Source: an uncultured bacterium
GTDB taxonomy: Bacteria; Eisenbacteria; RBG-16-71-46; CAIMUX01; WJJG01
DNA: 64,000 nucleotides
Reading direction: 5' to 3'
Assembly (NCBI GenBank): GCA_964603725.1
Contig: CAZRWW010000001.1
Span: forward strand, 69,634 to 133,633
Of this stretch, positions 1,111 to 59,778 are shown piece by piece. Every line of letters begins with the position of its first letter. Within the stretch, counting starts at the first letter, position 1. The notes under the pieces were generated by a model. That model saw only the letters and a program-made list of their open reading frames with translations. It was not told where the DNA came from and did no database searches. The position numbers and the translations under genes are program-made.

Positions 1111-1431
1111 GACCGCAGCATAGGGCAGGCTCCTCGGCGGGCACAACGCCGCCGGGTCGGCGGGAGGCGCGCTACTGCCAGTCCGGTTCGGCCGCCGGAG
1201 CGGCCGGGGCCCACGGCCCGTTCCGGGGTATTCCTTGACCGGCAAGGTAGGGGAGGCCTAAGCTGATCGGTTCCGGCCTTGCACCAAGGCTCTGAGTCGG
1301 GCGGCGGCGGATGTGCCCGGCCTCCGCGGCGGCGGTTCGCCGGCGTCCCGGGGCCCGCGCGGCGTCCCAGGATCCGCGCTCAGGGCTTCCTTGGGGCCGG
1401 CCGTCGGGGCATTCGTACTGGAGGTTACACC

Positions 1432-5016
<3,585 letters not shown>

Positions 5017-5065
5017 GCGGCCGCTGGATGGCTGCCGCTGCGATACCTGCCAGGAGGGGACGATC

Positions 5066-6058: not shown

Positions 6059-6120
6059 GCCCGCGCGGGGATCGCCACGGCCGCACATCGCGACGGGCCG
6101 CTGCGCCGGGAGGAATCGCC

Positions 6121-8178
6121 ATGGCCGCACGGCGGCGCAGGTTGCGCCCGGATGATCTGTTTCGCCTGAGCATCCCCACCGGCCTCGACCTGGCGCCGGA
6201 CGGGAAGCGGGTGGCCTTCGCCCTCAAGGTCGTCAACGTCCGCGACAACGAGTACAACGCCCACCTCTTCGTGGCCGGGCCCCGCGGCGGCCGGCCCCGG
6301 CAGCTGGCGCGCGGCCGGACCGTCGACAGCGAGCCGCGCTGGTCCCCCGACGGCCGGCACATCGCCTACATTTCCAAGCCGCCGGACGGCATCCCCCAGG
6401 TGCGCATCCTGCCGCTGGAAGGGGGCGAGTCCTGGCAGCTCACGCGGCTCGCGGGCGGCCCCGTGCGACAGCTGAGCTGGTCGCCCGACGGGCGGGCGCT
6501 GCTCTTCTGCCATCGGACCCAGCCGCGGATCGACCCGGAGCAGCGCAAGCGTCGGGCCACGTACAAGCACATCACGCGCATCATGCACAAGCTCGACGGG
6601 GACGGGTTCTTCCCCGCCGAGCGCTGGCACATCTGGAAGGCCTCCTTCCCGGGCGGCCGCCTGCAGCAGCTCACCCGCGGCGAACAGGACGACCTGGAAC
6701 CCGTCTGGAGCCCCGATGGCCGCCGCATCGCCTTCGTCTCGAACAGGGTCCCCGAGGCGGACTATCACCCGGAGAACAGCGACCTCTTCATCATCGGCGC
6801 GGGCGGCCGGGGCCTGCGTCAGGTGACGCGCCGGTTCGGGCCCGTGTCGGCTCCGGCCTGGTCGCTCGACGGCCGCCGCCTGTACTACGTGGGGCACTTC
6901 GGGCCCGAAGGCGAATGGCTGCGCCACCCGCTGCACATCTACTCGATCCCGGCGAGCGGGGGCCGCGTGGTCGACTTGACGCCCGCGCTCGACAACTGGC
7001 CCGGCAACTGGCTGGCCTCGGACACCGCCGGCCCTGGACTGGGATACGTGCGGCTGTTGCCCTTTCAGGACCCCGCCGGCAACCCACCGCCGGGGACCCG
7101 GCCGCCGCGGGGCGCTCCGGTCGAAGCGTCATCCGCGGAGCGACTCGCGTTCCTGCTGAACGAGCACGGCGGCTGCCGGCTCTACTCCATCCCGGCAGGG
7201 GGCGGCCGGGCGCGCGCGGAGCTCGGGGGCCCGGTGAACATCATCGCCGCGGCGCTCCGGCCCGGCACGGGCGAAGCCGCCCTCGCCGTGACGCGCATGC
7301 TGGACTGCGGCGACATCTTCCGCCTGCGGCTGGACGGCGCCGCGGCGACTCGCCGGATCACCCACCTCAACGGCCCGCTGCTGAGCCGCCTGCGGTTGGC
7401 GGAGCCCGAGGAGGTGATCTTCGGCGGCGCCCGCAACCGCCACGTCCCCGTGCACGGCTGGATCCTCAAGCCCCCGGGGTTCCGACCCGGGCGGCGCTAT
7501 CCGCTGGTGCTCTACATTCACGGCGGGCCGATGGCGCAGTTCGGCTACGTCCTCTTCCATGAGCTGCACTTGCTGGCGGCGCAGGGGTACGTCGTCGTGT
7601 TCACCAATCCGCGCGGAAGCTCGGGCTACGGGCTGCGCTTCATGAACTGCATCGAGAACCGCTGGGGCACGGATGACTATGCCGACCTCATGGCCGTGGT
7701 CGACGAGATGGCGCGGGCGCCCTACGTGGACGCCCGGCGCCTCGGGGTGGCGGGCGGCAGCTACGGCGGCTTCATGACCACCTGGATGGTGGGGCACACC
7801 GATCGCTTCCGGGCCGCCGTGACGCAACGCCAGGCCTCCAATCTGCTGATCCAGGTCGGGTCATCCGACTTCGGCTTCCTGCGCACCTACCGGCGCGGGT
7901 CGACCCCCTGGCAGACTCCGATGAAGCACATCGCGGACTCGCCCAACTATTACGCCGACCGCATCCGCACGCCGCTGCTCATCATTCACAGCGAGGAGGA
8001 CCTGCGCTGCCCCATCGCGCAGAGCGAGGAGCTCTTCACCTTCCTGAAGCTGCAGCGCAAGACGGTGGAGATGGTCCGCTTCGAGGGCGAGTCCCACGGG
8101 CTCTCGCGCGGCGGCAAGCCCCGGAACCGCCTCGAGCGACTGGAGCGCATCCTGGACTGGTTCGCGCGCTATCTCTAG
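6121..8178 (+). CDS. S9 family serine peptidase (prolyl oligopeptidase or acylaminoacyl-peptidase type) with an N-terminal TolB-like beta-propeller
   Basis: WSPDGRHIAY and WSPDGRRIAF propeller repeats. The C-terminal alpha/beta hydrolase has GGSYGGFMT (GxSxG) and ends ...EDLRCP. GGGAGGAA lies upstream of the ATG at 6121 (MAARRRRL). Confidence 0.9.
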   Translation: MAARRRRLRPDDLFRLSIPTGLDLAPDGKRVAFALKVVNVRDNEYNAHLFVAGPRGGRPRQLARGRTVDSEPRWSPDGRHIAYISKPPDGIPQVRILPLEGGESWQLTRLAGGPVRQLSWSPDGRALLFCHRTQPRIDPEQRKRRATYKHITRIMHKLDGDGFFPAERWHIWKASFPGGRLQQLTRGEQDDLEPVWSPDGRRIAFVSNRVPEADYHPENSDLFIIGAGGRGLRQVTRRFGPVSAPAWSLDGRRLYYVGHFGPEGEWLRHPLHIYSIPASGGRVVDLTPALDNWPGNWLASDTAGPGLGYVRLLPFQDPAGNPPPGTRPPRGAPVEASSAERLAFLLNEHGGCRLYSIPAGGGRARAELGGPVNIIAAALRPGTGEAALAVTRMLDCGDIFRLRLDGAAATRRITHLNGPLLSRLRLAEPEEVIFGGARNRHVPVHGWILKPPGFRPGRRYPLVLYIHGGPMAQFGYVLFHELHLLAAQGYVVVFTNPRGSSGYGLRFMNCIENRWGTDDYADLMAVVDEMARAPYVDARRLGVAGGSYGGFMTTWMVGHTDRFRAAVTQRQASNLLIQVGSSDFGFLRTYRRGSTPWQTPMKHIADSPNYYADRIRTPLLIIHSEEDLRCPIAQSEELFTFLKLQRKTVEMVRFEGESHGLSRGGKPRNRLERLERILDWFARYL

Positions 8179-8199
8179 CCGGCAGCGCGGGGAGGCCGC

Positions 8200-9042
8200 A
8201 TGGGCCCCGACAGGGACAGGACAATCCCGGAGGAGCTGCTCCGGCAGCGCCTGGCCCGCTTGACGAAGGCGAGCGTGATCGACTGGCTCATTGAGCGCAG
8301 CCGTCTGGATGCCGCCCTGCGCCAGGATCTCGCCCAACTGGCCGGGCCCGCGCGCCTCCAGCCGCCCGCGCCCGAGTCGGCCAGCGAGCCTGTCCGACTG
8401 GCGCGCCGGATGCTCGCCGCCGGCCGGCCGGCCGACGCGCTGGAGCACCTCGACCGCCTGCGGGATGCCGATCCCCAGACTCGTGAGCCGGACGATGCGC
8501 CGGCGTTGCGCGGCGAGGCGCTCCTGGCGCTGGGGCGCCCGACCGAGGCCTTCGAGGTCCTGTGGGGGGCCTTCCGCCACACGCTCCGGGTGGGGTTCCT
8601 GCGCAGCGCCATCGCCCTGGCGCCGCGCGGTCGGGCCGCGCACATCGACGCCGACGCCCTGGACGAGGCCGAGGCCCATCCCGATGCCGACCTGGCCTTG
8701 GGGTTCCTGATCGCTCGCGGCGCGCTCGACCGGGCGGCTGGACTGATCGAGCGCCGGTTCGCCGAGCTCTCGGTGACCGCCCGCACGGGGCTGAAGCCGG
8801 TGGCCGCCGCGCTGCGCGAGGATGACCCGCGTCAGTCCTGGCAGCTCCTGCGGCTCATGCTGATCGACCTGCTGGAGACCGGCGGCGCCCGCTCCTATGC
8901 GCAGGCGAGCGATCAGCTCGGGCAGATGCGGCAGCTCGCCCGTAGCGGCGGCTTCGTCCGCGAGCACGACGCCTTCGTCGAGCAGCTTCGCCAGGACTAC
9001 CGGCGCAAGACGGCTTTCTGGCGCATGGCCTCCGCGGAGTGA
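8200..9042 (+). CDS. Hypothetical protein (helical, TPR-like?)
   Basis: The ORF starts 22 nt after the peptidase stop on the same strand. Composition is Ala/Leu/Arg/Asp-rich but not low-complexity. I recognise no family. Confidence 0.45.
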   Translation: MGPDRDRTIPEELLRQRLARLTKASVIDWLIERSRLDAALRQDLAQLAGPARLQPPAPESASEPVRLARRMLAAGRPADALEHLDRLRDADPQTREPDDAPALRGEALLALGRPTEAFEVLWGAFRHTLRVGFLRSAIALAPRGRAAHIDADALDEAEAHPDADLALGFLIARGALDRAAGLIERRFAELSVTARTGLKPVAAALREDDPRQSWQLLRLMLIDLLETGGARSYAQASDQLGQMRQLARSGGFVREHDAFVEQLRQDYRRKTAFWRMASAE

Positions 9043-16426: not shown

Positions 16427-17233
16427 CTACTGGAAGAGAGCCTTCACCTGACCCCACGTCGAGCTCTCGACCGGCGAGATGCCGCCGCTGCCCTCGAGGA
16501 TGAAGGGCACGCCCTGCGGGGCGCCGCTGCCGGTGTCGATGAGCTGCTGCCACAGGCCGGAGGCGTACTGCAACGCATCACCCGTCGTGGTCTGGCCCAG
16601 GAAGACGATCGGGTTGCCCCAAGGTCCCGAGGCCAGCGTGCCTGTGTGATCGTAGGCGATCCAGTACCAGCCCGCACTGAGGACGAGCGGCGGACTGAAA
16701 GCGCACACGTTGGCCATGATTGGGCGGTTGGTGTCCATCATGGCGGTGTCGAGCACCCGATAGCAGCCCGACCACGCGGTCGTCACCAACCGGTTGGTGA
16801 CCTGATCCCCGTAGATGACCGTGCCGCCGGGAGGCGCGTCATCCAAGATCTCGAAGTACGCGCCCGTGAAGGTGGACGTCGTCGAGGATCCGGTCTGATA
16901 GCCGAAGAACGTGACCTGGTTGATCGTCCAGGTGCAGCCCGTGGGAACCACGAAGTCGTCGGCAAAGCGATAGGGAATCGTGTGGTTGAAGTTGAAGCCG
17001 TAGACCGACATGCCAAGGGCCGTCTGGACCACCGACGCGTTGGCGCCGCCGTAGCCGCCGCCCGGATGCGTGACGAACGGGCCGTTGTCATACAGGACAT
17101 CCCGCGAGGGAGTCCAGACCGGGCCGCCGTTGGGCGCGATGAAGCCCGTGACCGCCTCGGTGTCAACGGCGAGGTCCGCGAACACTGGGGCAGCTAGGAC
17201 TGCCAGCGCGAACAACACTGCAAAGCTGCGCAT
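16427..17233 (-). CDS. Secreted hypothetical protein, paralog 1 of 3, ending in the WGQVKALFQ C-terminal tag
   Basis: Signal peptide MRSFAVLFALAVLAAPVFA. It is about 85% identical to the two upstream paralogs and ends ...SSTWGQVKALFQ*. AGGAGG lies upstream of the ATG. Confidence 0.8.
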   Translation of the reverse strand: MRSFAVLFALAVLAAPVFADLAVDTEAVTGFIAPNGGPVWTPSRDVLYDNGPFVTHPGGGYGGANASVVQTALGMSVYGFNFNHTIPYRFADDFVVPTGCTWTINQVTFFGYQTGSSTTSTFTGAYFEILDDAPPGGTVIYGDQVTNRLVTTAWSGCYRVLDTAMMDTNRPIMANVCAFSPPLVLSAGWYWIAYDHTGTLASGPWGNPIVFLGQTTTGDALQYASGLWQQLIDTGSGAPQGVPFILEGSGGISPVESSTWGQVKALFQ

Positions 17234-17363
17234 CTTCTAACCTCCTGTCGACTTTGCACCGCCGCAGGGAACAGCGACTCCTGGTTTCGCACCAAGCACT
17301 GCGCACCCGCGGCCGCGCACTCACTGAACACAAGGTTTGATGCAGCGGCCGGATCACTCTGCT

Positions 17364-17402
17364 GTGAGACCCTTTCCCATTGCTGGGCGACCTGACTCTC
17401 AC
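17364..17402 (-). promoter_or_regulatory. Conserved inverted-repeat element at the predicted 5' end of the paralog transcripts (copy 1)
   Basis: GTGAGA-N27-TCTCAC with an internal CCCA-GCAA-UGGG (GNRA-capped) hairpin. It starts 5-8 nt after the -10 box. Copies lie at 18562..18600 and 19761..19798. Confidence 0.5.
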
Positions 17403-17404
17403 AT

Positions 17405-17440
17405 CCATAATGATACCGACGACCTGTAGCTGTGTTCAAG
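17405..17440 (-). promoter_or_regulatory. Putative sigma70-like promoter for paralog 1
   Basis: Minus strand TTGAAC-N18-TATCAT. A homologous TTGAAT-N18-TAGGAT lies at 18608..18637, and TTGAAG-N18-TAGAAT at 19806..19835. Confidence 0.45.
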
Positions 17441-17554
17441 CACAATGACAGTGATTCGGGTGTCCCCTCCACGGGGTTCATCCAGCTGACGGGGGAGTGC
17501 CGGAAGCGCGGCCTGATCATCAATTCTGTTTACGGCCGTAACCAGTCACGCGCG

Positions 17555-17591
17555 CCCAAAAGCAGACGCGCGCCCCTCGGGGGCGCGCGTC
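17555..17591 (-). terminator. Intrinsic terminator downstream of paralog 2
   Basis: Perfect 12-bp stem GACGCGCGCCCC/GGGGCGCGCGTC with a 3-4 nt loop. On the minus strand it is followed by UGCUUUUGGG. Confidence 0.75.
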
Positions 17592-17619
17592 CGACGGAAC
17601 TCGGCTTCCGTTCCTCAAG

Positions 17620-18432
17620 CTACTGGAACAGAGCCTTCACCTGACCCCACGTCGAGCTCTCGACCGGCGAGATGCCGCCGCTGCCCTCGAGAATGAAGGG
17701 CACGCCCTGGCCGGTGCCAGTGCCGGTGTCGATGAGCTGATTCCACATCCCCGAGGACGCGGTGTACTGGAGGCCGTCACCCGTCGTCGTCATGCCCAGG
17801 ATCGTGACCGGCGGGCACCAGGGCCCGGAGGCCAGCGTTCCCGTGCAATCGAACGCGATGTAGTACCAGCCGGGTCCCAGGACCAGGGGCGGAGTGACCG
17901 CGCACACGTTCGCCATAACCGGACGGTTGGTGTCCATCATGGCGGTGTCGAGCACGCGGTACATGTTCGCCCAGGCCGTCGTGACCAGGCGGTTGGTCAC
18001 CGTGTCACCCCAGATCACGGCGCCGCCGGGAGGCACGTCATCGAAGATCCGGATGTACGCACCCGTGTAGCTGGATGTCGTCCCGGAGCCTGTCTGATAG
18101 CCGAAGATCGTGACCTGGTTGATCGTCCAGGTGCAGCCCTGGGGAACCACAAAGTCATCGGCCATCGTGTTCGGCAGCGTGTGCTGGAAGCCGAAGCCGT
18201 ACGTCGACAGCCCCAGAGCGGTCTGGAGCACCGACGCGTTGGCGCCGCCGTAGCCGCCACCCGGGTGGGTGACCAGCGGGCCGTTGTCGTACAGGACATC
18301 CCGTGAGGGAGTCCAAATCGGGCCGCCGTTGGGCGCGATGAAGCCCGTGACCGTCTCGGTGTCGGCTTCGAAGTCCGCCAGCACCGGAGCGACCAAGGCT
18401 GCCAGCGCGAACAACACTGCAAAGCTGCGCAT
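17620..18432 (-). CDS. Secreted hypothetical protein, paralog 2 of 3, ending in the WGQVKALFQ tag
   Basis: MRSFAVLFALAALVAPVLA signal. Same family as 16427..17233. Ends ...SSTWGQVKALFQ*. Confidence 0.8.
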   Translation of the reverse strand: MRSFAVLFALAALVAPVLADFEADTETVTGFIAPNGGPIWTPSRDVLYDNGPLVTHPGGGYGGANASVLQTALGLSTYGFGFQHTLPNTMADDFVVPQGCTWTINQVTIFGYQTGSGTTSSYTGAYIRIFDDVPPGGAVIWGDTVTNRLVTTAWANMYRVLDTAMMDTNRPVMANVCAVTPPLVLGPGWYYIAFDCTGTLASGPWCPPVTILGMTTTGDGLQYTASSGMWNQLIDTGTGTGQGVPFILEGSGGISPVESSTWGQVKALFQ

Positions 18433-18561
18433 CTTCTAACCTCCTGTCGACACTTGCACGCTACAGAGATTGTCGCCCTGTGGCTTCCTGCCCAGTGACA
18501 CATCCCCGTAGCCGCGCACTCACTGAACGTAAGGTTGATGCAGCGGCCGGATCACTCTGCT

Positions 18562-18600
18562 GTGAGACCCTTTCCCATTGCTGGGTGACCTGGTTCTCAC
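18562..18600 (-). promoter_or_regulatory. Conserved inverted-repeat 5' element, copy 2
   Basis: Homologous to 17364..17402 with 3 substitutions. Confidence 0.5.
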
Positions 18601-18607
18601 ACCAGCG

Positions 18608-18637
18608 ATCCTAATGGCACTTGAGAGCTGCATTCAA
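18608..18637 (-). promoter_or_regulatory. Putative sigma70-like promoter for paralog 2
   Basis: Minus strand TTGAAT-N18-TAGGAT, at the same relative position as in the other copies. Confidence 0.4.
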
Positions 18638-18751
18638 GCGCCTTTTTGCAGTAACTCGGGAGCCCCCTCCACGGGGTCCATCCGACGGCCGGGAGAGCAC
18701 CGGGAGTGCGGTCTGGTCGTCATTTTGGTTTACGGTTGTAACTAACCGTCC

Positions 18752-18793
18752 TCGCCTAAATGCAGACGCGCACCCCCGAGGGGCGCGCGTCTG
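18752..18793 (-). terminator. Intrinsic terminator downstream of paralog 3
   Basis: Stem CAGACGCGCACCC/GGGCGCGCGTCTG with one mismatch. On the minus strand it is followed by CAUUUAGG. Confidence 0.55.
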
Positions 18794-18817
18794 ATTCACT
18801 CAGCCTCAGTCCCAGGA

Positions 18818-19630
18818 CTACTGGAACAGAGCCTTCACCTGACCCCAGGTCGAGCACTCGACCGGCGAGCAGCCGCCCGTGCCCTCGAGAATGAAGGGCA
18901 CGCCCTGGCCGGTGCCAGTGCCGCTGTCGATGGCCTGATTCCACATGCCCGAGGACGCGGTGTACTGGAGAGCGTCACCCGTCGTCGTGATGCCCAGGAT
19001 CGAGACCGGCGGGCACCAGGGCCCGGAGGACAGCGTTCCCGTGCAATCGAAGGCGATGTAGTACCAGCCCGCGCTCAGAACCAGAGGCGGATCCACGGCG
19101 CACACGTTCGCCATGACCGGACGGTTGGTGTCCATCATGGACGTGTCGAGCACGCGGTACATGTTCGCCCAGGCCGTCGTGACCAGGCGGTTGGTGACCG
19201 TGTCACCCCAGATCACGGCGCCGCCGGGAGGCGCATCGTCGAAGATACGGATGTACGCACCCGTGAAGCTCGACGTCGTCCCGGAGCCGGTCTGGTAACC
19301 GAAGATCGTGACCTGGTTGATGGTCCAGGTCTGGCCCTGGGGAACCACGAAGTCATCGGCCATCGTGTTCGGCAGCGTGTGCTGGAAACCGAAGCCGTAC
19401 AACGAAAGTCCCAGAGCGGTCTGGAGCACCGACGCGTCCGCGCCGCCGTAGCCGCCACCCGGGTGGGTGACCAGCGGGCCGTTGTCGTACAGGACATCCC
19501 GTGAGGGAGTCCAAATCGGGCCGCCGTTGGGCGCGATGAAGCCCGTGACCGTCTCGGTGTCGGCTTCGAAGTCCGCCAGCACCGGAGCGACCAAGGCTGC
19601 CAGCGCGAACAACACTGCAAAGCTGCGCAT
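18818..19630 (-). CDS. Secreted hypothetical protein, paralog 3 of 3, ending in the WGQVKALFQ tag
   Basis: MRSFAVLFALAALVAPVLA signal. Ends ...CSTWGQVKALFQ*. Confidence 0.8.
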   Translation of the reverse strand: MRSFAVLFALAALVAPVLADFEADTETVTGFIAPNGGPIWTPSRDVLYDNGPLVTHPGGGYGGADASVLQTALGLSLYGFGFQHTLPNTMADDFVVPQGQTWTINQVTIFGYQTGSGTTSSFTGAYIRIFDDAPPGGAVIWGDTVTNRLVTTAWANMYRVLDTSMMDTNRPVMANVCAVDPPLVLSAGWYYIAFDCTGTLSSGPWCPPVSILGITTTGDALQYTASSGMWNQAIDSGTGTGQGVPFILEGTGGCSPVECSTWGQVKALFQ

Positions 19631-48567: not shown

Positions 48568-49344
48568 ATGCGACGCGCTCTGACGATCATCGCAACACTC
48601 GTGGTCTTCTCCACCCTCGCCCACGGCGATCCGCATATCCTGGCCAGCGGGGCGTTGATCACGCACTCGATGAGCTATGGGCGTTACCCACCGCAATGCT
48701 ACACCTACTATCAGTACAATCCGATCTCGAGCTGCAACGAACAGAACGCCACCATGTCTTGGGGTAGGCACGCGTGGTTCGTCATCGCAGCGTTCGACGA
48801 GGAGAAGCAGTGGTGCGGCGTCGAGTTCGGGTTCAACGATTTCAACCCCGAGCCCTTCGACTTCTGGGGGGCGGACCCGTGCTTCCCGGTGGGCGGACTG
48901 GAGATTCCATCCGCAAACTGGCCGGGCCCGCTCCAGGGCACAGCCTTCGTGACGACCGGCACGCCGTGGACGGGCAACTTCGTGCCGGTCTACTGCTTCT
49001 ACGGGTATGCCTACGACTACTACGGATCCACGATCCTGCAGCTCACGCCCAATCCGGCGAGCGGTTTCGGCGGCTTCGCCAACTGCACGACGCCGCCGGA
49101 GTTGTACGAGGCCGCCCTGGGTGGGATGGGGGTCAACTGCCCGGGCGTGGAGGTGTGCTGGGGCTGGCAGGAGTTCGTCTGCTGCGTGGGCACCGAATGC
49201 GTGCTGGTGCACGGCCAGGAGGAGTGCACGGCCCTGGGCGGCATCTTCCACGCCGAGTGGGATAGCTGCGGGCCCCCGAATCCGTGCGACGTGACGCCGG
49301 CCATCCGGTCGAGCTGGGGACGCGTCAAGGCGCTGTACCGTTGA
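48568..49344 (+). CDS. Secreted Cys-rich hypothetical protein ending in the SSWGRVKALYR C-terminal tag
   Basis: Signal peptide MRRALTIIATLVVFSTLAHG. More than 14 Cys residues. Its mature domain is unrelated to the tandem paralogs but it carries the same C-terminal motif. Confidence 0.7.
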   Translation: MRRALTIIATLVVFSTLAHGDPHILASGALITHSMSYGRYPPQCYTYYQYNPISSCNEQNATMSWGRHAWFVIAAFDEEKQWCGVEFGFNDFNPEPFDFWGADPCFPVGGLEIPSANWPGPLQGTAFVTTGTPWTGNFVPVYCFYGYAYDYYGSTILQLTPNPASGFGGFANCTTPPELYEAALGGMGVNCPGVEVCWGWQEFVCCVGTECVLVHGQEECTALGGIFHAEWDSCGPPNPCDVTPAIRSSWGRVKALYR

Positions 49345-53796: not shown

Positions 53797-56034
53797 ATGA
53801 ACGAGCGCATGCACAGCAACGGCTCGAGCGCCGCGTCCGCGCGGGCGGACCAGGCGGCCCCCTTCCGGCTGGGCGAATGGGCCGTCCACCCGGCGCTGAA
53901 TCGCGTCGCCCTGGGAGACACCTGGGTCCAGGTCGAGCCGCGCGTGATGCACGTTCTGGCGTGCCTGGCCAGCCGGCCCGGGGAGGTCTTCTCGCGCGAG
54001 AGACTGCTGGCGATCGTCTGGAACGACCTGGTGGTCTGCGAGGAGGCGCTCACGCGGACGATCTCGGAGCTGCGCCGCATCTTCCACGACGATCCGCGCA
54101 CGCCGCGGTTCATCGAGACCATCCGCAAGGGCGGGTATCGCCTGATCGCCCCCGTCTCCCCGCTGATCGAGCCGGCGCCACCGGCGCGCGGCAACCTGCC
54201 GCCGGTCGAGCCGGGGCAGTCGCGGCCCGCGGGCAGCGGTGCCCCGCTCGCCGCTCGCGAGCTCATCCCGGACGCATCGGCCCCGGCCCGCGATGTCCGA
54301 CGCCGGCCGCCCGCGCGCCTGAGGATGGTTGTCTACGCGGTCATGGTCGTGCTGACCGTAGCGGCGGGAACCCTCGCCGCCCAGCGGCTGCGCTCTCGGA
54401 CCGCGGGGCCGAGCACGCTGGACGGCGTGCCCTTCACGACCTATCCGGGAGCCGAACGATTCCCGGCGCTGTCGCCCGACGGCACGCAGGTAGCCTTCGC
54501 CTGGAACGGCGGCCAGGACGGCCGGTTTTCGATCTACGTCAAGCAGAGCAACACCGAATCGCCGCTGCGCCTCACGAACGGCGCCACAGATGACAGCCAT
54601 CCGGCCTGGTCCCCGGACGGCAGCGCCATTGCCTTCATCCGCCGCGACACCCAGGGCTACGGCATCTACACCGTGCCGTCGATCGGCGGCGTGCCGCGGC
54701 GGTTGATCCCGCTCGCCGCGGAGCCGCGCGGCCTGGACTGGTCGCCGGACGGCGCCTGGGTCGCCGTCGGGGACGCGCCCGCGGCGGGGCGGGCCGCGGG
54801 GATCACGCTGCTCGCACTGGAGTCTCTGGAAACTCGCCGAATCACCGACCCGCCGGCGCACTTCGGCGGCGATGGGCTGCCGGCCTTCTCACCCGACGGA
54901 CGGTCGCTCGCCTTCTCGCGCGTCGACGCCGCCGGCATGAGTCGCTTGTACATCGTCGCGACCGGCGGGGGCGAGCCGAGGCCCTTGACGCCCGCGCAGG
55001 AGGCGATCAGCGGTGTCGACTGGACGGCGGACGGCCGCGCGATCATCTTCGCGGCGACGTCGAACGGCAGCTGCACACTGGCGCGTCTGGCCCTCCGGTC
55101 CGGCACCCTCACGCGCTTGATCACCAGGGGCGCGGAGGCGCGGTGCCCGTCGCTCTCGGCAGCGAGCGGCCGGCTGGTCTACGAGGAGGCGTCGCAGCGC
55201 GCGGACGTCTACCGGGTCGAGCTCGATGCGGCGCGCCGCCCCGGCCCGCCGCGGCCGCTGATCGCATCGACGCGGGCGGACGCGGACGCGCACTTCTCGC
55301 CGGACGGGTCCCGGCTGGCTTTCCTGTCCGATCGCGCCGGCTCGCGCGAGGTGTGGATCTGTGACGCCGGCGGCGGCAATGCGCGCCAGCTCACCCGCCT
55401 GGGCGGACCGTGCATGAGCACGCCGTGCTGGTCGCCGGATGGCCGGCGGCTGGCCTTCTCCGCCGCCGACTCCGGCGGATGCTTCATGATCCACGTGGTC
55501 GAGGCCGAGGGAGGGCAGCCCCATCGCCTTCCCGGCGCCGGCGGCCATGAGATCGCCTCGCTCTGGTCGCGCGACGGGCAGTGGATCTACTTCGACGCGG
55601 AGCGCGCGGGCGGCTGGGACATCCGGCGCGTGCGCCCGGACGGCCGCGACGCGGCGACCGTCGTGGCCGGGGGGCGCCGCGTCATGGCGCAATCGCCCGA
55701 CGGCGAGCTGATTTACCACCTCGCCCCTGGCGACGGCGGCATTCAGTGCTCGACGCCCGGTGGCGAGCCGCGCGGGACCCTCGTGGACGGCGCGTCGGCG
55801 CAGCCGTGGCGAGCCATTGCGCTCGGCCCCGGCGGCGCCTACTTCACGCGGCCGAGCGGCGCCGGTTGTCTGCTCGGGTTCTGTGATTTCCAAACCGGAC
55901 GAATGGACTCGCTCCTGCAGTTGCCCCCGCTCTGTGGCGCGCACCTCTCGCTCTCGCCGGATGGCCGGACGCTCATCTACGACCAGATCGATCAGGTGGC
56001 CGGCGACCTGATGCTGGTCGAGGGCCTTCGCTGA
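53797..56034 (+). CDS. CadC/ToxR-like membrane-bound transcriptional regulator (OmpR-type winged helix) with a periplasmic TolB-like beta-propeller
   Basis: FRLGEWAVHPALNRVALGDTWVQVEPRVMHVLACLASRPGEVFSRERLL...TIRKGGYRLIA, then a TM helix, then repeats SPDGTQVAFAW, WSPDGSAIAFI and WSPDGAWVAV. Confidence 0.85.
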   Translation: MNERMHSNGSSAASARADQAAPFRLGEWAVHPALNRVALGDTWVQVEPRVMHVLACLASRPGEVFSRERLLAIVWNDLVVCEEALTRTISELRRIFHDDPRTPRFIETIRKGGYRLIAPVSPLIEPAPPARGNLPPVEPGQSRPAGSGAPLAARELIPDASAPARDVRRRPPARLRMVVYAVMVVLTVAAGTLAAQRLRSRTAGPSTLDGVPFTTYPGAERFPALSPDGTQVAFAWNGGQDGRFSIYVKQSNTESPLRLTNGATDDSHPAWSPDGSAIAFIRRDTQGYGIYTVPSIGGVPRRLIPLAAEPRGLDWSPDGAWVAVGDAPAAGRAAGITLLALESLETRRITDPPAHFGGDGLPAFSPDGRSLAFSRVDAAGMSRLYIVATGGGEPRPLTPAQEAISGVDWTADGRAIIFAATSNGSCTLARLALRSGTLTRLITRGAEARCPSLSAASGRLVYEEASQRADVYRVELDAARRPGPPRPLIASTRADADAHFSPDGSRLAFLSDRAGSREVWICDAGGGNARQLTRLGGPCMSTPCWSPDGRRLAFSAADSGGCFMIHVVEAEGGQPHRLPGAGGHEIASLWSRDGQWIYFDAERAGGWDIRRVRPDGRDAATVVAGGRRVMAQSPDGELIYHLAPGDGGIQCSTPGGEPRGTLVDGASAQPWRAIALGPGGAYFTRPSGAGCLLGFCDFQTGRMDSLLQLPPLCGAHLSLSPDGRTLIYDQIDQVAGDLMLVEGLR

Positions 56035-56109
56035 GCAGGGATGCCCCGCGGCGCGACGATGCGGCGCTCGCCGGCCGGGCATGCCCGCGGCGCGAGCGCC
56101 GCGCGGGAT

Positions 56110-58263
56110 TCAGGGCTTGCGATCGGGCAGCAGCCCCAGCTCCGCCAGAGCCGCGCGCGCGAGCGCGTGGCGCCGGCTCATGACCTGCTCGAAGGTCGGG
56201 CTGTCAAAGTTGAGCGCGTAGAAGTAGACCTCCGCATCACGCTCCACGTAGCCCACGAGCCACCCGACGAAGCTTCCATCCGGCTGGCGGCCCGTCCCGC
56301 TCTTCCCGCTCAGCCGATAGCCCTCCCCCTCCTCGAGCACGATCAGGCGCTTGACGAGGTCGGTGGCGGCCGGGGAGGCGCCGAGTTGACCGCGATAGAA
56401 CCGCTCGAGGAAGCGGATCTGCTCGTCAGCCGAGATGGTCAGGGAGTTGGCCAGCCAGAACCGGTCGACCCCGCCCGAGATGTCCCGATTGCCGTAATCG
56501 TAGCGCTCGAGATAGCGCGGATAGGCATCGTCTCCGATGCGCCGCGCGATCTCCTGGTAGAACCAGACGACCGAGTGGCGCATGGCCGAGGCGAGGCCCT
56601 GGTCCGCGTCCCAGCCCTCCGGCCATCCGGGCTGCCGCGGGTCACGCCGGGGGTCCCAGGCCAGGCGGAACTCTTCGCCCGTGATCACGCCGGTCTCAAG
56701 ACCGATGAGCGTGTTGGGGATCTTGAACGTCGAGCAGGGCGAGAAGCGCCGGGCGCAGCGCTCCGGATCATGGCGCACGTGGCGATGGCGCTGAGGATCA
56801 TAGAGGGCGAATGCGATCCAGGCGCTGTCGGGCACGGCGCCGGGTTGTCCGGAAGCAGTGTCGGGCGCCCCCCCGAGGGTGGCGGAAACCGTATCAGGCG
56901 CCTCGCCGAGCCGGTCGGGGGCCGCGGCGGGAGCCGCGCCGGGAGCCGCGCCGGGGGCCGCGGCGGGAGCCGCGCCGGGAGCCGCGCCGGGAGCCGCGCC
57001 GATGTCGGCGAAGGCCGCCGCGAGCCGGTCGTGGAGCGCCCCCTGCCCCGAGATGATCCAGTCGCGCGTGCCGTCGCCGTAAGCGCGGTAGAAGTCGTTG
57101 CCCAGGACGAACAGACACTGGTCGCGCAACTCGGGCTGCGCAAAGGTGACATTGAGCGGGATGACGCGCCCGCCGAAGGTGGGCTCGATCCAGTCGTGGC
57201 GCGTGTGGCCCACGATCACGCGCGACGCGTCGTAGCGAGCCAGCACCTCGCTCAGCTCAGCCGCCGTGATCCGCTGGTACCGCTTCGCATGGACGAAGTA
57301 GCCCCGGTACCAGAGGGGCCCCAGGGACCCGAACAGCAGCTCGGCCGCTTCGTCTGCGGGGCAAGCCCCCTTCTCCAGGCAGCGGCGAACGATGGCGTTG
57401 AGGTCGTCGATGGTCTGGCCCGATCGCGCCACCTCGGGCGACAGCCCGCCGTGCACGCAGAGCAGATCGCCCAGACGGATGACCGCCGGCCACGCGCGCA
57501 CCCATCGCCCCAGCTCGGTGCGCGGACCGAAGAGCTCTTCGTAGGCGATTCCCAGCGCATCGCACAGGTAGAGCTGCGCGCAGGCCACGTAGCGCCGGTC
57601 ACCGTTCAGGGCCCTGTGCTCGTGGTTGCCCAGCAGGCAGTGGACCCGGCCGCCGGCCGGCGCGGCCTGCTGTTCGAGCTTGCGGATCAGCCACAGGCAG
57701 TCCGTCACGCCGGCGCCGCGGTCGAAGACGTCGCCGCAGAAGACGAGGTGTCCGCGGCCGAACGCCCAGTCGCCCCGCTCGTCGATGATGCCGCAGCTGC
57801 GCAAGAGCGCGACCGCACTGCCGTACTCGCCGTGCAGGTCGCCCACAAAGCAGATCGACTCGGGCCGGGCCTGCACTGCCTCGGGCACCGGGAGCGAGGC
57901 GCCGATCAGGAACCTGCGCTCGTCCCCGGCGAATCCCCGCAGCTCGAAGGGAACCCGCCCGGCGTCCGCCGACTCGGCGGCCCGCCCGGGATCCACGGCG
58001 AGCGTCTGCTCGATGATCTCATCGGCGCCGCGCTGCGAATCGCGGACGAGGTAGATCAGCCGCACGCGGCGATCGTCGTCCCAGAAGACGTGCGGTCCGT
58101 CGCGCAGGCTGGCAATGCTGTCGGCGGGCGGGATGCGGCCGAAGCAGCCCGGGTCGCGGGCCTGGGTGGTCCCACGTTCCTGAGCGCCGGCAGTCGGCCA
58201 GCCGGCGCAGATGACCAGCGTCAGCGCGGACGTCCAGGCCGCGCGCCTGCTTGATGCGATCAT
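56110..58263 (-). CDS. Periplasmic fusion protein: N-terminal calcineurin-like metallophosphoesterase plus C-terminal class D beta-lactamase/BlaR-sensor-like transpeptidase-fold domain
   Basis: Signal MIASSRRAAWTSALTLVICAGWPTAGA. Phosphoesterase motifs GDLHG, GDVFDRG and GNHE. A linker of (APGAA)n comes from a 15-bp DNA repeat at about 56925..57000. The OXA-like domain has STFK, YGN and KSGTG motifs. Confidence 0.8.
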   Translation of the reverse strand: MIASSRRAAWTSALTLVICAGWPTAGAQERGTTQARDPGCFGRIPPADSIASLRDGPHVFWDDDRRVRLIYLVRDSQRGADEIIEQTLAVDPGRAAESADAGRVPFELRGFAGDERRFLIGASLPVPEAVQARPESICFVGDLHGEYGSAVALLRSCGIIDERGDWAFGRGHLVFCGDVFDRGAGVTDCLWLIRKLEQQAAPAGGRVHCLLGNHEHRALNGDRRYVACAQLYLCDALGIAYEELFGPRTELGRWVRAWPAVIRLGDLLCVHGGLSPEVARSGQTIDDLNAIVRRCLEKGACPADEAAELLFGSLGPLWYRGYFVHAKRYQRITAAELSEVLARYDASRVIVGHTRHDWIEPTFGGRVIPLNVTFAQPELRDQCLFVLGNDFYRAYGDGTRDWIISGQGALHDRLAAAFADIGAAPGAAPGAAPAAAPGAAPGAAPAAAPDRLGEAPDTVSATLGGAPDTASGQPGAVPDSAWIAFALYDPQRHRHVRHDPERCARRFSPCSTFKIPNTLIGLETGVITGEEFRLAWDPRRDPRQPGWPEGWDADQGLASAMRHSVVWFYQEIARRIGDDAYPRYLERYDYGNRDISGGVDRFWLANSLTISADEQIRFLERFYRGQLGASPAATDLVKRLIVLEEGEGYRLSGKSGTGRQPDGSFVGWLVGYVERDAEVYFYALNFDSPTFEQVMSRRHALARAALAELGLLPDRKP

Positions 58264-58432
58264 GGCTCCTCCGGCGGCGCGGGCTGAGGTTGGAGCCGCA
58301 CCGTGCCGGAGAGCTTAGCGAAGGCTCCCACTGGGCGCAGGAGAAAAGATGGCGCCCCGCCTGGTAGCCAAGCGGGGCGCCTCAGATCCCAGCCGCGTGG
58401 ACCTCCGACGCGCGGCCCGGGCTACTGAGAGA

Positions 58433-59224
58433 CTACTCGAAGAACGCCTTGATCTGACCCCACGTGGTGGGATCGGCCGGGCTGGGAGGACCCGCCAGCA
58501 GCAGGCACTCCACCAAGCGACTGAACCCCGCGTTCGTGTAGGGACAGATCGCGGCCGGATTCGGATGGCCGAACTCCACCAGGCAGGCCCCGTGACCGTA
58601 GTCGGCGATGAACACGCAGGGCAGGCCGGTCACCGGACCTTGCCCGACGATGTGCCACTCGGCGCCCATTTGCAGCACGGTGTCGCCTGCAAACGGCAGG
58701 TCCGCGCCGGTGATGCCCTGGGCAATGCAGTGCGTTGGATCGACGATCACCGTGGGACAGTCGGCGCCGTTGTACGCGTTGTTGACCATCAAGTCATAGG
58801 GCGCCCAGGTGATGTCGGCGTTGTTCCCGGGCATCTGATAGGGATTCGGCTGGCCGATCCACAGCTTGCCGCCGCCGTTGACGTAGGCGTGGTAGTCCTG
58901 CGCCAGCCCGTCCAGCGTGTAGTAGTAGGCGGGCGCGGCGTGCGACACCGGCAGAATCACGATGTCGTACTGGCTCAAGACGCTGAGGTTCGAGGTCGCG
59001 GGAATGATCGTCGAGCCGTAGCCAACGGCCGTCAGGCGGTCCTGGAAGTTCGAGATGCCGCCGCCGGCGTCGACGATGGCGACCGTGGCGTCGGCGTACG
59101 ACCACGGGCTGGGCACGACGCTGTCGTCGAGCCCATCCTGGTTGACGTCCTCAGCCAGAGCAGGCGCGGCCTGCCAGCCGAGACACAGACAGACGAGTAA
59201 CACGGGTGCGAACACGGATCTCAT
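58433..59224 (-). CDS. Secreted hypothetical protein ending in the TTWGQIKAFFE C-terminal tag
   Basis: Signal MRSVFAPVLLVCLCLGWQAAPALA. GGGAGGAG lies upstream of the ATG. Its mature domain is unrelated to the other tag-bearing proteins. The track ORF extends to 59338. Confidence 0.7.
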   Translation of the reverse strand: MRSVFAPVLLVCLCLGWQAAPALAEDVNQDGLDDSVVPSPWSYADATVAIVDAGGGISNFQDRLTAVGYGSTIIPATSNLSVLSQYDIVILPVSHAAPAYYYTLDGLAQDYHAYVNGGGKLWIGQPNPYQMPGNNADITWAPYDLMVNNAYNGADCPTVIVDPTHCIAQGITGADLPFAGDTVLQMGAEWHIVGQGPVTGLPCVFIADYGHGACLVEFGHPNPAAICPYTNAGFSRLVECLLLAGPPSPADPTTWGQIKAFFE

Positions 59225-59778
59225 GGCGGGCTCCTCCCTCAGTGGCTTCCCGAGGCTGCCGAATGCACCGAGACGATGATCGGCGAGAACGGACGCGGTG
59301 GCCTGTTTGTCTCGAGGCTCTGTCTCGCCCGGACACAAGCACGATGAGCTGGTCGCTACTGGTATTCTGCCTCAGCACGGGGGGGGAATCAAGCGCTGCT
59401 CATGGCGCGCGCTCGGCGCTGCCTGCCGAGGAACCCTACGGCTCGACAAGGCGAACGGTCGTAAGCAATGAATCGTAACGGTCGGAACTGCCCGGCCCTC
59501 ACCCCCGGAGGGAATGAGGGCCGGAATACAGAGACAGATGTCACCGCCCGCGGGACCCGGTTCGAACACCACGTGCACCGTTCTCACTCGGGACCCGCAG
59601 GCTCCTGGGCCTGACCGGAGAGGTCCCCGGCAGGCCCGCTCCGGAAACACTGGCGGCCGCGCCGTGTTCCCGAAAAACCACGCGCTCTTGCTCGGTCGCG
59701 CAGGCGAGGCAGTCCTACCGGTTGCATCTCGGCGCCCGCGGGGCCGGCTCACTCTCGCCACGATGGCAGATGCGCCCC

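What the first reader, a model, noticed from the sequence alone, without database searches (positions are those of the whole stretch)
56110..58263. Unusual domain fusion: calcineurin-like metallophosphoesterase joined to a class D beta-lactamase/BlaR-sensor-like domain by an (APGAA)n linker
A signal peptide is followed by a phosphoesterase domain with an intact metal-ligand motif set (GDLHG, GDVFDRG, GNHE). Next comes a roughly 25-aa Ala/Pro/Gly repeat linker encoded by a 15-bp tandem repeat. The C-terminal domain has the three active-site motifs of OXA-type enzymes or BlaR sensors: STFK, YGN and KSGTG. OXA-like sensor domains are normally fused to BlaR metalloprotease modules. A periplasmic phosphatase partner is not a combination I recognise. 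It might couple beta-lactam or peptidoglycan-fragment sensing to dephosphorylation. The repeat linker could vary in length.
Basis: partly seen in the sequence, partly recalled or inferred. Interest (0 to 1): 0.65.

Follow-up and report, generated by a model that had tools for sequence, protein, structure and literature searches.

The report
Phosphatase fused to class D beta-lactamase
A secreted protein from an uncultured, probably Eisenbacteria-type bacterium joins an intact protein-phosphatase-type enzyme to an intact OXA-type beta-lactamase through a variable repeat linker; the combination is real and extremely rare, but the evidence points to two ordinary enzymes on one chain rather than a new antibiotic-sensing device.

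Summary
Window 56110..58263 (-) is one uninterrupted 717-aa ORF. It encodes a signal peptide, a Shewanella-like PPP phosphatase (E 2e-55 to PDB 1V73), a disordered Ala/Pro/Gly linker of about 59 aa, and a complete class D beta-lactamase domain (E 1e-44 to OXA-48). All catalytic residues of both domains are present. One detail is wrong: the repeat unit is 12 bp (AAPG/AAPA, with a 36-bp higher-order unit), not 15 bp.

The fusion is not an artefact. Three other assemblies carry it, with linkers of about 0, 12 and 22 aa, and both domains are under purifying selection.

It is very rare. Only one full-length two-domain cluster exists among 1.84 billion cluster representatives, all in one narrow lineage.

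The sensor interpretation is not supported. Motif 2 is S-V-V (enzyme type, not BlaR's S-x-N). There is no membrane or M56 module. The nearest relatives are stand-alone lactamases of about 260 aa. Linker length is unconstrained. A close relative carries an in-frame amber stop.

The best reading is a bifunctional exported hydrolase whose two domains act independently. Related class D domains are fused to several other enzymes in metagenomes. This is a new domain architecture of known enzyme kinds, of moderate interest.

The parts
56110..58263 (-). Complete fusion gene, 717 codons plus a TGA stop
   Evidence: Single ORF. GC3 is 0.88, coding-like. Orthologues P0001, P0002 and L005 align end to end.
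58266..58272 (-). Shine-Dalgarno sequence GGAGGAG ending 2 nt (two unpaired bases) upstream of the ATG
   Evidence: Read directly from the sequence. It supports the chosen start codon.
58341..58381 (-). Terminator-like hairpin (14-bp stem with 12 G-C pairs, 3-nt loop, then ATCTTTTCTC) between the upstream gene and the fusion gene
   Evidence: Consensus scan and sequence. It suggests, as an inference, that the fusion gene is transcribed on its own. One site was found against 1.3 expected in shuffles, so this rests on stem strength alone.
58180..58263 (-). Signal peptide, residues 1-28 (MIASSRRAAWTSALTLVICAGWPTAGA|Q). An RR pair makes Tat export possible but it is not conserved in the orthologues.
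   Evidence: Inspection of the sequence. AlphaFold models a lone helix at 2-21 followed by a low-pLDDT stretch at 22-37. Orthologue N-termini are equally hydrophobic. No signal-peptide predictor was available.
57859..58116 (-). N-terminal beta-subdomain of the Shelph-type phosphatase fold, residues about 50-135
   Evidence: Beta strands at residues 55-120 with pLDDT mostly 74-94, dipping to about 60 over residues 91-100. The whole 331-residue 1V73 structure maps onto the N-terminal half of the model of orthologue P0002 with target-normalised TM 0.90. Stand-alone homologues align from residue about 50. Constraint is weak, dN/dS 0.5-0.7.
57004..57858 (-). PPP-family (Shewanella-like, 'Shelph') phosphatase catalytic core, residues 136-420, with D142, H144, D178, R182, N213, H214, H271 and H353
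   Evidence: Pfam Metallophos. 1V73 at E 2.4e-55. Catalytic columns are invariant or nearly so in 124 homologues. pLDDT is above 90. dN/dS is 0.28-0.35.
56827..57003 (-). Disordered Ala/Pro/Gly-rich interdomain linker, residues 421-479
   Evidence: pLDDT 29-36 with no secondary structure. Composition over residues 419-482, the 64-aa stretch counted: A 23, P 11, G 10. It is absent or much shorter in orthologues.
56908..57001 (.). In-frame tandem repeat, 12 bp x 7.9 copies (36-bp higher-order unit x 2.6), encoding (AAPG AAPG AAPA)n
   Evidence: TRF scores 146 and 161. Sequence. An independent Logan assembly of what looks like the same sample (its neighbouring regulator is identical to the window's) ends just 3' of the repeat.
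56113..56826 (-). Class D (OXA-type) beta-lactamase domain, residues 480-717, with S511-T-F-K514, S564-V-V566, Y590-G-N592, W603, K654-S-G656 and R698
   Evidence: Pfam Transpeptidase. NCBIfam class D models at 207-210 bits. It aligns across the whole mature OXA-48 and OXA-10. Motif columns are conserved in 129 homologues. dN/dS is 0.15-0.21. Foldseek matches OXA-48 at TM about 0.70.

Best explanation
The gene encodes an exported, presumably periplasmic, bifunctional hydrolase. It arose by fusion of two formerly separate genes in one narrow lineage of uncultured, probably Candidatus Eisenbacteria, bacteria.

After export and signal-peptide cleavage, the N-terminal half is an active dinuclear-metal PPP-family phosphatase of the Shewanella-like type. 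It most plausibly removes phosphate from phosphoproteins, phosphopeptides or other organic phosphomonoesters in the envelope. The C-terminal half is a true class D beta-lactamase: Ser511 is acylated by a beta-lactam and the acyl-enzyme is hydrolysed with the help of carboxylated Lys514. The two domains act independently ('beads on a string'). The linker is only a spacer. In this genome it has grown by in-frame slippage of a 12-bp unit.

Shown here: the continuous ORF, the identity of both domains, intact catalytic residues, conservation of the fusion, purifying selection on both halves, a variable and dispensable linker, and rarity.

Inferred: export, both enzymatic activities, the substrates, and independence of the two domains.
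For: 1. It is a real fusion. There is one ORF here. The same architecture occurs in P0001 (671 aa), P0002 (639 aa) and L005/P0121+P0122, from different samples, with the same upstream neighbours (5-formyl-THF cyclo-ligase plus a secreted protein of about 262 aa).

2. Both active sites are complete. The PPP signature GDxHG / GDxxDRG / GNHE (as defined in PMC535813) and the two further His ligands are present. The class D set SxxK, SxV, YGN, omega-loop Trp, K(S/T)G and Arg250-equivalent is present.

3. Both halves are under purifying selection. dN/dS is 0.28-0.35 for the phosphatase and 0.15-0.21 for class D in three pairwise comparisons.

4. The class D domain is of the enzyme type, not the sensor type. 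Motif 2 is S-V-V. The nearest relatives are stand-alone class D proteins of 259-285 aa at 54-58% identity. The class_D_main model scores higher than blaR1_generic (206.9 against 183.8 bits).

5. Junction length runs from about 0 aa (P0002) to 59 disordered aa here, so no fixed interdomain geometry is conserved.

6. Related class D domains (45-52% identity) are fused to quite different partners: a DNA-alkylation repair enzyme, SnoaL/DUF4440, an MBL fold, and class A plus DUF6454. Class C-class D fusions with two working domains are published (LRA-13, PMC5967600). The class D domain is therefore a promiscuous fusion module.

7. A stand-alone homologue of the phosphatase sits in a SusC/SusD/NAGPA nutrient-uptake cluster. 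That fits an envelope scavenging hydrolase better than a signalling enzyme.
Against: No activity was measured for either domain.

The C-terminal domain scores below NCBI's curated cut-off for class D lactamases (206.9 against 250 bits).

The bacterial PPP motif (I/L/V)D(S/T)G reads L-N-V-T. The Asp is said to be replaceable only by Glu (PMC535813), although 8 of 124 homologues, including the nearest stand-alone ones, also have Asn.

AlphaFold pTM is 0.76-0.79 for both the linker-less and the long-linker protein. That is higher than I would expect for two freely tethered domains and could mean a defined interface.

A close relative carries an in-frame amber stop in the phosphatase half, so the protein may be dispensable or decaying.

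No reason for the fusion is evident. Stand-alone phosphatase and class D genes were never adjacent in the 10 loci examined.
Confidence: 0.6

Rival explanations
1. Beta-lactam-gated (or muropeptide-gated) phosphatase. The class D domain is a covalent sensor, as in BlaR1/MecR1, and its acylation allosterically switches the attached periplasmic phosphatase, which acts on an envelope phosphoprotein or phospholipid.
For: BlaR1 sensor domains are structural homologues of class D enzymes and share the SxxK and K(T/S)G motifs (PMC5957439). The blaR1_generic model scores 183.8 bits over the sensor region. pTM of 0.76-0.79 hints at a possible defined interdomain arrangement. The fusion is kept under purifying selection in several genomes.
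Against: Motif 2 is S-V-V (enzyme type), whereas BlaR homologues have a polar third residue and an M56 peptidase domain (PMC9045261). There are no TM helices beyond the signal peptide and no BlaI-like repressor. The nearest relatives are stand-alone lactamases. The junction varies from 0 to 59 disordered residues. The neighbouring ToxR/CadC-like regulator is absent from relative L005. No periplasmic phospho-substrate is known or encoded nearby.
Confidence: 0.1
2. A near-neutral or decaying fusion. An accidental deletion joined two neighbouring genes. At least one half is now functionally unimportant (a pseudo-enzyme or mere carrier) and the gene is being lost in part of the lineage.
For: A close relative (PFOR 94% identical) has a CAG-to-TAG nonsense codon at the Gln330 position. 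The gene is called in two pieces on both contigs that carry it, the 59.6-kb contig read here and a 307-kb contig, and the stop leaves the class D part without a signal peptide. The fusion is confined to one cluster among 1.84 billion representatives. The protein evolves fast (76% identity where PFOR is 94%). There is a D-to-N change in the fourth PPP motif. The class D score is below the NCBIfam cut-off.
Against: dN/dS is well below 1 in both catalytic domains in all three comparisons, and strong GC3 bias probably makes these values conservative. Every catalytic residue is retained in all full-length copies. The amber allele has only that one lesion, so it is recent and says little about the intact copies.
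Confidence: 0.15
3. Two-pronged cell-wall-antibiotic defence. The phosphoesterase half also inactivates or counteracts an antibiotic, for example a phosphate-containing peptidoglycan-synthesis inhibitor, so that one exported protein protects against two classes of natural products.
For: Several other class D fusions pair it with a known or plausible resistance or detoxification enzyme: class C (LRA-13), and class A, an MBL fold and an AlkD-like DNA-alkylation repair protein. This pattern is only suggestive.
Against: Shelph-type PPP enzymes are known as protein/pNPP phosphomonoesterases (PMC535813). No antibiotic-modifying member is known to me. No resistance genes are nearby. A stand-alone homologue lies in a nutrient-uptake locus.
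Confidence: 0.05
4. Artefact: an assembly chimera at the repeat, or a sequencing frameshift that falsely joins two genes.
For: An independent Logan assembly of what looks like the same sample (L004 encodes the neighbouring regulator with exactly the window's sequence) stops at the repeat, so the repeat is hard to assemble. The exact 717-aa sequence is not on record although its neighbours are.
Against: Four independent assemblies join the same two domains in the same order and frame. Three of them have no tandem repeat at all, and P0002 has no linker.
Confidence: 0.02

Closest known systems
Class D (OXA) beta-lactamases, e.g. OXA-48 (PDB 3HBR/4WMC) and OXA-10 (1K4E)
   Same: About 36-40% identity across the whole mature enzyme. 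The motifs are the same: STFK, S-x-V, YGN, omega-loop Trp, K(T/S)G and the Arg250 equivalent. The fold is the same. Both are exported.
   Different: Here it is the C-terminal domain of a 717-aa protein, not a protein of about 265 aa with its own signal peptide. It has KSG rather than KTG, and Trp rather than Pro after S-V-V. It scores below the NCBIfam equivalog cut-off. Substrate profile and activity are unknown.
Shewanella cold-active protein-tyrosine phosphatase (PPI/CAPTPase, PDB 1V73, 2Z72); the 'Shelph' clade of PPP phosphatases
   Same: E 2.4e-55 and TM 0.90 over the entire solved structure, including the N-terminal beta-subdomain. All metal ligands and the catalytic His are present.
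   Different: It carries a C-terminal lactamase domain. The fourth bacterial PPP motif has Asn in place of Asp. The N-terminal region is longer and poorly conserved. Other bacterial relatives are fused to ankyrin repeats instead.
BlaR1/MecR1 beta-lactam sensor-transducers
   Same: They are multi-domain proteins whose extracytoplasmic C-terminal domain is a class D homologue that is acylated by beta-lactams (PMC5957439).
   Different: BlaR1 has four TM helices and a cytoplasmic M56 zinc protease, a polar S-x-N motif 2, and a bla/mec operon with a repressor (PMC9045261). None of these is present here.
Bifunctional or fused class D proteins: the LRA-13 class C-class D fusion, and the rare crotonase fusion seen in RefSeq
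   Same: A class D domain is joined to a second, unrelated catalytic domain on one exported chain. In LRA-13 both domains work independently (PMC5967600; PMC9045261).
   Different: Here the partner is a metallophosphatase, not a second lactamase. This partner was not reported in the RefSeq survey of 24,916 OXA-domain proteins. It was not found outside one cluster in 1.84 billion representatives.

Membership tests
Class D (OXA) beta-lactamase | Motif 1, S-x-x-K (nucleophilic Ser and the Lys that becomes carboxylated) | tested here: met
   S511-T-F-K514. The column is invariant for S and K in 129 homologues and aligns with OXA-48 S70/K73.
Class D (OXA) beta-lactamase | Motif 2, S-x-V with a hydrophobic third residue | tested here: met
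   S564-V-V566, as in OXA-48 (SVV). All four fused orthologues have SVV. The criterion comes from PMC9045261.
Class D (OXA) beta-lactamase | Y/F-G-N motif and K-T/S-G motif | tested here: met
   Y590-G-N592 and K654-S-G656. The orthologues have KTG.
Class D (OXA) beta-lactamase | Omega-loop Trp that stabilises the carboxylated lysine | tested here: met
   W603 in F-W-L, invariant in 129 of 129 sequences, aligned with OXA-48 W157 and OXA-10 W154.
Class D (OXA) beta-lactamase | Score above the curated NCBIfam equivalog cut-off (bla_class_D_main, 250 bits) | tested here: not met
   206.9 bits against a cut-off of 250. The best subfamily model (OXA-1089-like) gives 209.9 against 580. It is a divergent member of the superfamily clade, not of any named OXA family.
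Class D (OXA) beta-lactamase | Catalytic turnover of beta-lactams and CO2-dependent lysine carboxylation | not testable with these tools
   This needs enzyme assays with bicarbonate.
BlaR1/MecR1 sensor-transducer | N-terminal four-helix membrane domain with an M56 zinc-protease module | tested here: not met
   Pfam finds only Metallophos and Transpeptidase. The only predicted hydrophobic helix is the signal peptide.
BlaR1/MecR1 sensor-transducer | Polar third residue in motif 2 (S-x-N) | tested here: not met
   S-V-V. The criterion comes from PMC9045261 and PMC5957439.
BlaR1/MecR1 sensor-transducer | Curated NCBIfam cut-off (blaR1_generic, 400 bits) and an adjacent BlaI/MecI-type repressor | tested here: not met
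   183.8 bits, covering the sensor region only. The neighbours are a CadC/ToxR-like wHTH-TM-PD40 protein, a secreted hypothetical protein and a 5-FTHF cyclo-ligase. There is no BlaI.
BlaR1/MecR1 sensor-transducer | Long-lived acyl-enzyme through lysine decarboxylation | not testable with these tools
   This needs kinetic measurement.
PPP-family phosphatase, Shewanella-like (Shelph) clade | [quoted passage not shown] | tested here: met
   GDLHG (141-145), GDVFDRG (177-183) and GNHE (212-215). The definition comes from PMC535813.
PPP-family phosphatase, Shewanella-like (Shelph) clade | Remaining metal ligands (His of H-G-G and His of G-H) | tested here: met
   H271 is conserved in 124 of 124 sequences and H353 in 111 of 124.
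PPP-family phosphatase, Shewanella-like (Shelph) clade | Bacterial-type (I/L/V)D(S/T)G motif with an acidic second residue | tested here: not met
   It reads L-N-V-T in all fused copies. Asn also occurs in 8 of 124 homologues, including the nearest stand-alone ones. PMC535813 says only Glu substitutes for this Asp.
PPP-family phosphatase, Shewanella-like (Shelph) clade | Sequence and fold match to the founding member (Shewanella PPI, 1V73) | tested here: met
   phmmer E 2.4e-55. Foldseek E 1e-30, with TM 0.90 normalised to the target.
PPP-family phosphatase, Shewanella-like (Shelph) clade | Phosphomonoesterase activity and substrate class (pTyr, pSer/pThr or small molecules) | not testable with these tools
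   This needs assays.
Bifunctional beta-lactamase fusions (LRA-13 type) | Two beta-lactamase domains on one chain | tested here: not met
   The second domain is a metallophosphatase. Only the principle of a class D fusion is shared.

The most novel reading that the evidence does not exclude
The protein is a soluble, one-chain envelope signalling device. Covalent acylation of the class D domain by a beta-lactam, or binding of a peptidoglycan fragment, switches the attached PPP phosphatase on or off, linking detection of cell-wall antibiotics to dephosphorylation of a periplasmic target. This would be a BlaR1-like logic with a completely different output. The unexpectedly high pTM of both models is the only positive hint, and no result strictly excludes it.
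Probability: 0.07. Interest if true: 0.8.

Novelty: new variant of a known kind. Interest (0 to 1): 0.38.

Why it matters
If both halves are active, this is a domain architecture for a class D beta-lactamase that I did not find described.

It also offers a natural test case, because linker variants of 0 to 59 aa already exist. These could show whether fusing an exported lactamase to another hydrolase has any functional consequence.

The practical significance is modest. The gene is chromosomal, sits in an uncultured lineage, is not associated with mobile elements in this window, and is already inactivated in one relative.

Tried and rejected
1. Frameshift or chimera: rejected, because four assemblies share the fusion.

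2. Wider distribution:
- The genome-contig scan and the metagenome-contig scan found only phosphatase-only relatives at 36-38%.
- The exhaustive representative search found one fused cluster plus fragments.

3. 'Rosetta-stone' adjacency of separate phosphatase and class D genes: not seen in 6 phosphatase-only loci or in 4 class-D-only loci (the latter representing 2 distinct contexts). The sample is small.

4. The neighbouring CadC/ToxR-like wHTH-TM-PD40 regulator as a functional partner: rejected as obligatory, because it is convergent and absent from L005.

5. The conserved upstream 264-aa secreted protein: no Pfam, NCBIfam or PDB sequence match. A strong hairpin separates it from the fusion gene.

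6. Deep combined alignment A2 for structure prediction: MAFFT misaligned all the phosphatase-only sequences, so it was discarded. A3 and A4, without class D homologues, were used instead. As a result the class D half of both models has only moderate confidence.

7. AFDB fold search for any two-domain match: the library was unavailable.

8. Kumarasiri et al. 2012 (PMC3318726), on the BlaR1 N439 versus class D Val position, is not held. The criterion is cited through PMC9045261 and PMC5957439.

9. Lipoprotein anchoring: rejected by eye. The Cys in LVIC is not in a canonical lipobox and is not conserved across all orthologues (absent from P0001 and L005).

10. Literature searches for this architecture, or for beta-lactamases in Eisenbacteria, found nothing.
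Full report
**Observation.** The window has 70% G+C, so long spurious ORFs abound. One example is the 737-aa antisense ORF at 56041..58254 (+).

- The minus-strand ORF 56110..58263 (717 aa, ATG to TGA) has the codon-position GC pattern of real genes here, 0.73/0.54/0.88. A GGAGGAG Shine-Dalgarno ends 2 nt (two unpaired bases) before the ATG.
- Pfam finds Metallophos (residues 137-354) and Transpeptidase (502-692), both far above their gathering scores.
- Against solved structures, the N-terminal half matches the Shewanella cold-active protein-tyrosine phosphatase (1V73/2Z72, E 2e-55, residues 137-403). The C-terminal half matches OXA-48 and OXA-10 (E about 1e-43/1e-44) across the whole mature enzyme.
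- The one factual error concerns the repeat. TRF and the sequence show a 12-bp unit x 7.9 copies, organised as a 36-bp unit x 2.6, encoding AAPG-AAPG-AAPA. It is not a 15-bp (APGAA) unit.
- The repeat gives about 29 aa of a 59-aa Ala/Pro/Gly-rich linker (residues 421-479). AlphaFold models the linker as disordered, pLDDT about 30.

**Is the fusion real?** Yes.

- A word-indexed search of 5.8 billion proteins returned two full-length proteins with the same two Pfam domains: P0001 (671 aa) and P0002 (639 aa). In alignment they are 70% and 67% identical to the window protein.
- A fourth copy lies on JGI contigs (L005; P0122+P0121).
- All four share the upstream genes, a 5-formyl-THF cyclo-ligase and a secreted protein of about 262 aa.
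- The junction differs in each. P0002 is a direct join (...DRLAAVF|DSQAVAF...). P0001 has about 12 aa, L005 has about 22 non-repetitive aa, and the window has 59 aa.
- The tandem repeat is therefore a recent, lineage-specific expansion. It cannot be the cause of a chimeric join.
- An independent Logan assembly of what looks like the same sample (L004, which encodes the neighbouring regulator with exactly the window's sequence) ends just at the 3' edge of the repeat. That shows only that the repeat is hard to assemble.

**How rare, and where?**

- HMMER read all 1.84 billion 50%-identity cluster representatives. It found 8,702 relatives of one domain or the other, but only one full-length two-domain cluster (P0002) plus fragments of orthologues. 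Any protein with both domains scoring about 100 bits each would have ranked in the list shown.
- Scans of GTDB species genomes and of JGI metagenome contigs found only phosphatase-only relatives at 36-38% identity.
- The window comes from a 151-kb NCBI contig.
- Its PFOR is 74-78% identical to the named Candidatus Eisenbacteria MAG proteins, which are the best named hits. It is 94% identical to the PFOR of the 307-kb contig that carries the L005-type allele.
- The surrounding genes are ordinary chromosomal genes: PFOR, DHODH, peptidases, an MFS transporter, an MCP and glucan phosphorylase. None of the window ORFs scanned with Pfam matched a transposase or other mobile-element family.

**Are the domains functional?**

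- Phosphatase: D142, H144, D178, R182, N213, H214, H271 and H353 occupy columns that are invariant or nearly so in 124 homologues. These make up the PPP signature defined in PMC535813.
- The fourth 'bacterial' motif (I/L/V)D(S/T)G reads LNVT. The paper says the Asp tolerates only Glu. However, Asn is also found in the closest stand-alone homologues (8 of 124), so it is a subclade trait and not a fusion-specific lesion.
- The model of the linker-less orthologue P0002 superposes on the whole 1V73 structure, including its N-terminal beta-subdomain, with TM 0.90.
- Class D: S511-T-F-K514, S564-V-V566, Y590-G-N592, W603, K654-S-G656 and R698 align with the catalytic set of OXA-48 and OXA-10. They are conserved across 129 homologues.
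- Nei-Gojobori dN/dS among the window, L001 and L005 genes is 0.28-0.35 for the phosphatase core, 0.15-0.21 for class D, and 0.5-0.7 for the first 135 residues. Strong GC3 bias probably depresses dS, so these are conservative signs of purifying selection on both catalytic halves.

**Sensor or enzyme?** A survey of 24,916 OXA-domain proteins states that BlaR homologues are marked by a polar third residue in motif 2 and an N-terminal M56 peptidase domain, whereas class D enzymes have S-x-V. It also states that class D proteins longer than 350 aa are very rare: three class C fusions, three N-terminal extensions and one crotonase fusion (PMC9045261). S. aureus BlaR1 has S437-V-N439 (PMC5957439).

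- Here motif 2 is S-V-V.
- There is no membrane or protease module.
- The class D model outscores the BlaR1 model.
- The closest relatives of the C-terminal domain are stand-alone proteins of 259-285 aa at 54-58% identity, annotated as class D beta-lactamase.
- I therefore read the domain as a hydrolysing enzyme. One reservation remains: it is divergent enough to fall below NCBI's curated cut-off (206.9 against 250 bits).

**Is there evidence for functional coupling?** Little.

- The junction ranges from none to a 59-aa disordered tether.
- The only regulator nearby is a convergent CadC/ToxR-like wHTH-TM-TolB-propeller protein at 53797..56034. It is missing from the L005 locus.
- A strong hairpin plus T-run separates the upstream gene from the fusion gene.
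- Stand-alone phosphatase and class D homologues were never neighbours in the ten loci examined.
- One Bacteroidota homologue of the phosphatase lies in a SusC/SusD/NAGPA cluster. That suggests an envelope nutrient-scavenging role for this phosphatase clade.
- Class D domains 45-52% identical to this one are fused to other partners in metagenomes: a DNA-alkylation repair domain, SnoaL/DUF4440 domains, an MBL-fold domain, and a class A lactamase plus DUF6454. The class C-class D fusion LRA-13 is published as two independently working domains (PMC5967600). The class D domain thus seems to be a frequent passenger in gene fusions.
- One point speaks the other way. AlphaFold pTM is 0.76 (P0002) and 0.79 (window), which is higher than I expect for two unconnected domains. 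PAE was not available and the class D half was modelled from a shallow alignment, so I leave this unexplained.

**Dispensability.** In L005 the orthologous ORF is intact except for a single CAG-to-TAG change at the Gln330 position.

- The change splits the gene into the two called proteins P0122 and P0121, which are in the same frame.
- Two contigs, the 59.6-kb contig read here and a 307-kb contig, carry the downstream 336-aa call P0121, so the gene is split in both.
- The stop removes the end of the phosphatase and leaves the lactamase part without a signal peptide, so that allele is probably null. Having only one lesion, it must be recent.

**Conclusion.** The finding is a real, conserved and extremely rare domain architecture.

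- The best-supported mechanism (confidence about 0.6) is an exported bifunctional protein. A Shelph-type metallophosphatase and a class D beta-lactamase work independently, joined by a spacer of no fixed length that has expanded here by in-frame repeat slippage.
- A beta-lactam-gated phosphatase remains possible but has no positive support beyond the pTM hint (about 0.07-0.1).
- A near-neutral fusion in decay is the main sober rival (about 0.15).
- It is a new variant of known kinds. It is interesting as part of a broader, under-described pattern of class D fusions, but it does not in itself indicate a new mechanism.

Noticed in passing
L005 9971-9973 (JGI 3300005254 contig Ga0068714_10000706); corresponds to window 57274-57276: In a close relative the fusion gene carries one in-frame amber codon (window TAC CAG CGG, relative TAT TAG CGT) and is otherwise intact. 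It was therefore called as two proteins, P0122 (322 aa) and P0121 (336 aa). Two contigs carry the downstream 336-aa call. This is probably a recent null allele.
   Followed up: partly
window 48568-49344 (+), 58433-59227 (-), 16427-17233 (-), 17620-18432 (-), 18818-19630 (-): Five secreted proteins with no family match all end in the same tail, (S/T)(S/T)WG(Q/R)(V/I)KA(L/F)(F/Y)(Q/E/R)-stop, with the Trp exactly 9 residues from the stop. It looks like a lineage-specific C-terminal sorting tag. One of the five is the conserved upstream neighbour of the fusion gene. The fusion protein itself lacks the tail.
   Followed up: partly
window 16427-19630 (-): Three tandem paralogous genes (268-270 aa, 78-93% identical to one another), each with a signal peptide and the C-terminal tail above. 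They have no Pfam hit.
   Followed up: partly
window 53797-56034 (+): A one-component membrane regulator: a CadC/ToxR-like winged-helix DNA-binding domain, one TM helix, then a TolB-like PD40 beta-propeller. It is convergent with the fusion gene, with the 3' ends 75 bp apart. It is present next to the fusion in P0001's contig, and a partial opposite-strand gene in the same position on L001 was not identified, but it is absent from L005.
   Followed up: partly
L004 5389 (Logan ERR4534291 contig end); window about 56898: An independent assembly of what looks like the same sample (its neighbouring regulator is identical to the window's) terminates just at the 3' edge of the 12/36-bp repeat. In addition, the exact 717-aa protein is not on record in the protein collection, although its neighbours from the same 151-kb NCBI contig are. 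The repeat copy number in the window may therefore be uncertain or heterogeneous.
   Followed up: partly
P0124, P0138, P0147, P0165, P0182, P0204 (metagenomic proteins): Class D domains 45-52% identical to this one are fused to other partners: a DNA-alkylation repair domain, DUF4440/SnoaL domains, an MBL-fold domain, and a class A beta-lactamase plus DUF6454. I did not find this diversity of class D fusions reported in the RefSeq survey I read.
   Followed up: partly
L010 (Logan SRR25229951) 1-8300; P0003-P0032: A stand-alone homologue of the phosphatase (P0007) sits directly after SusC-like, SusD-like and NAGPA genes. Many other Bacteroidota homologues carry N-terminal ankyrin repeats. This hints at envelope scavenging or protein-binding roles for bacterial Shelph phosphatases.
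   Followed up: no
models m0b92aed5dba9 (P0002) and md71ec632146a (window protein): pTM is 0.76 and 0.79 despite the two-domain architecture, and in the window protein despite a 50-residue disordered linker. This may indicate a predicted interdomain interface. It could not be checked without PAE or coordinates.
   Followed up: no
window 56041-58254 (+): A 737-aa ORF lies antisense to the fusion gene. It is a typical high-GC artefact, not a gene, because its codon-position GC pattern did not pass the coding filter.
   Followed up: yes
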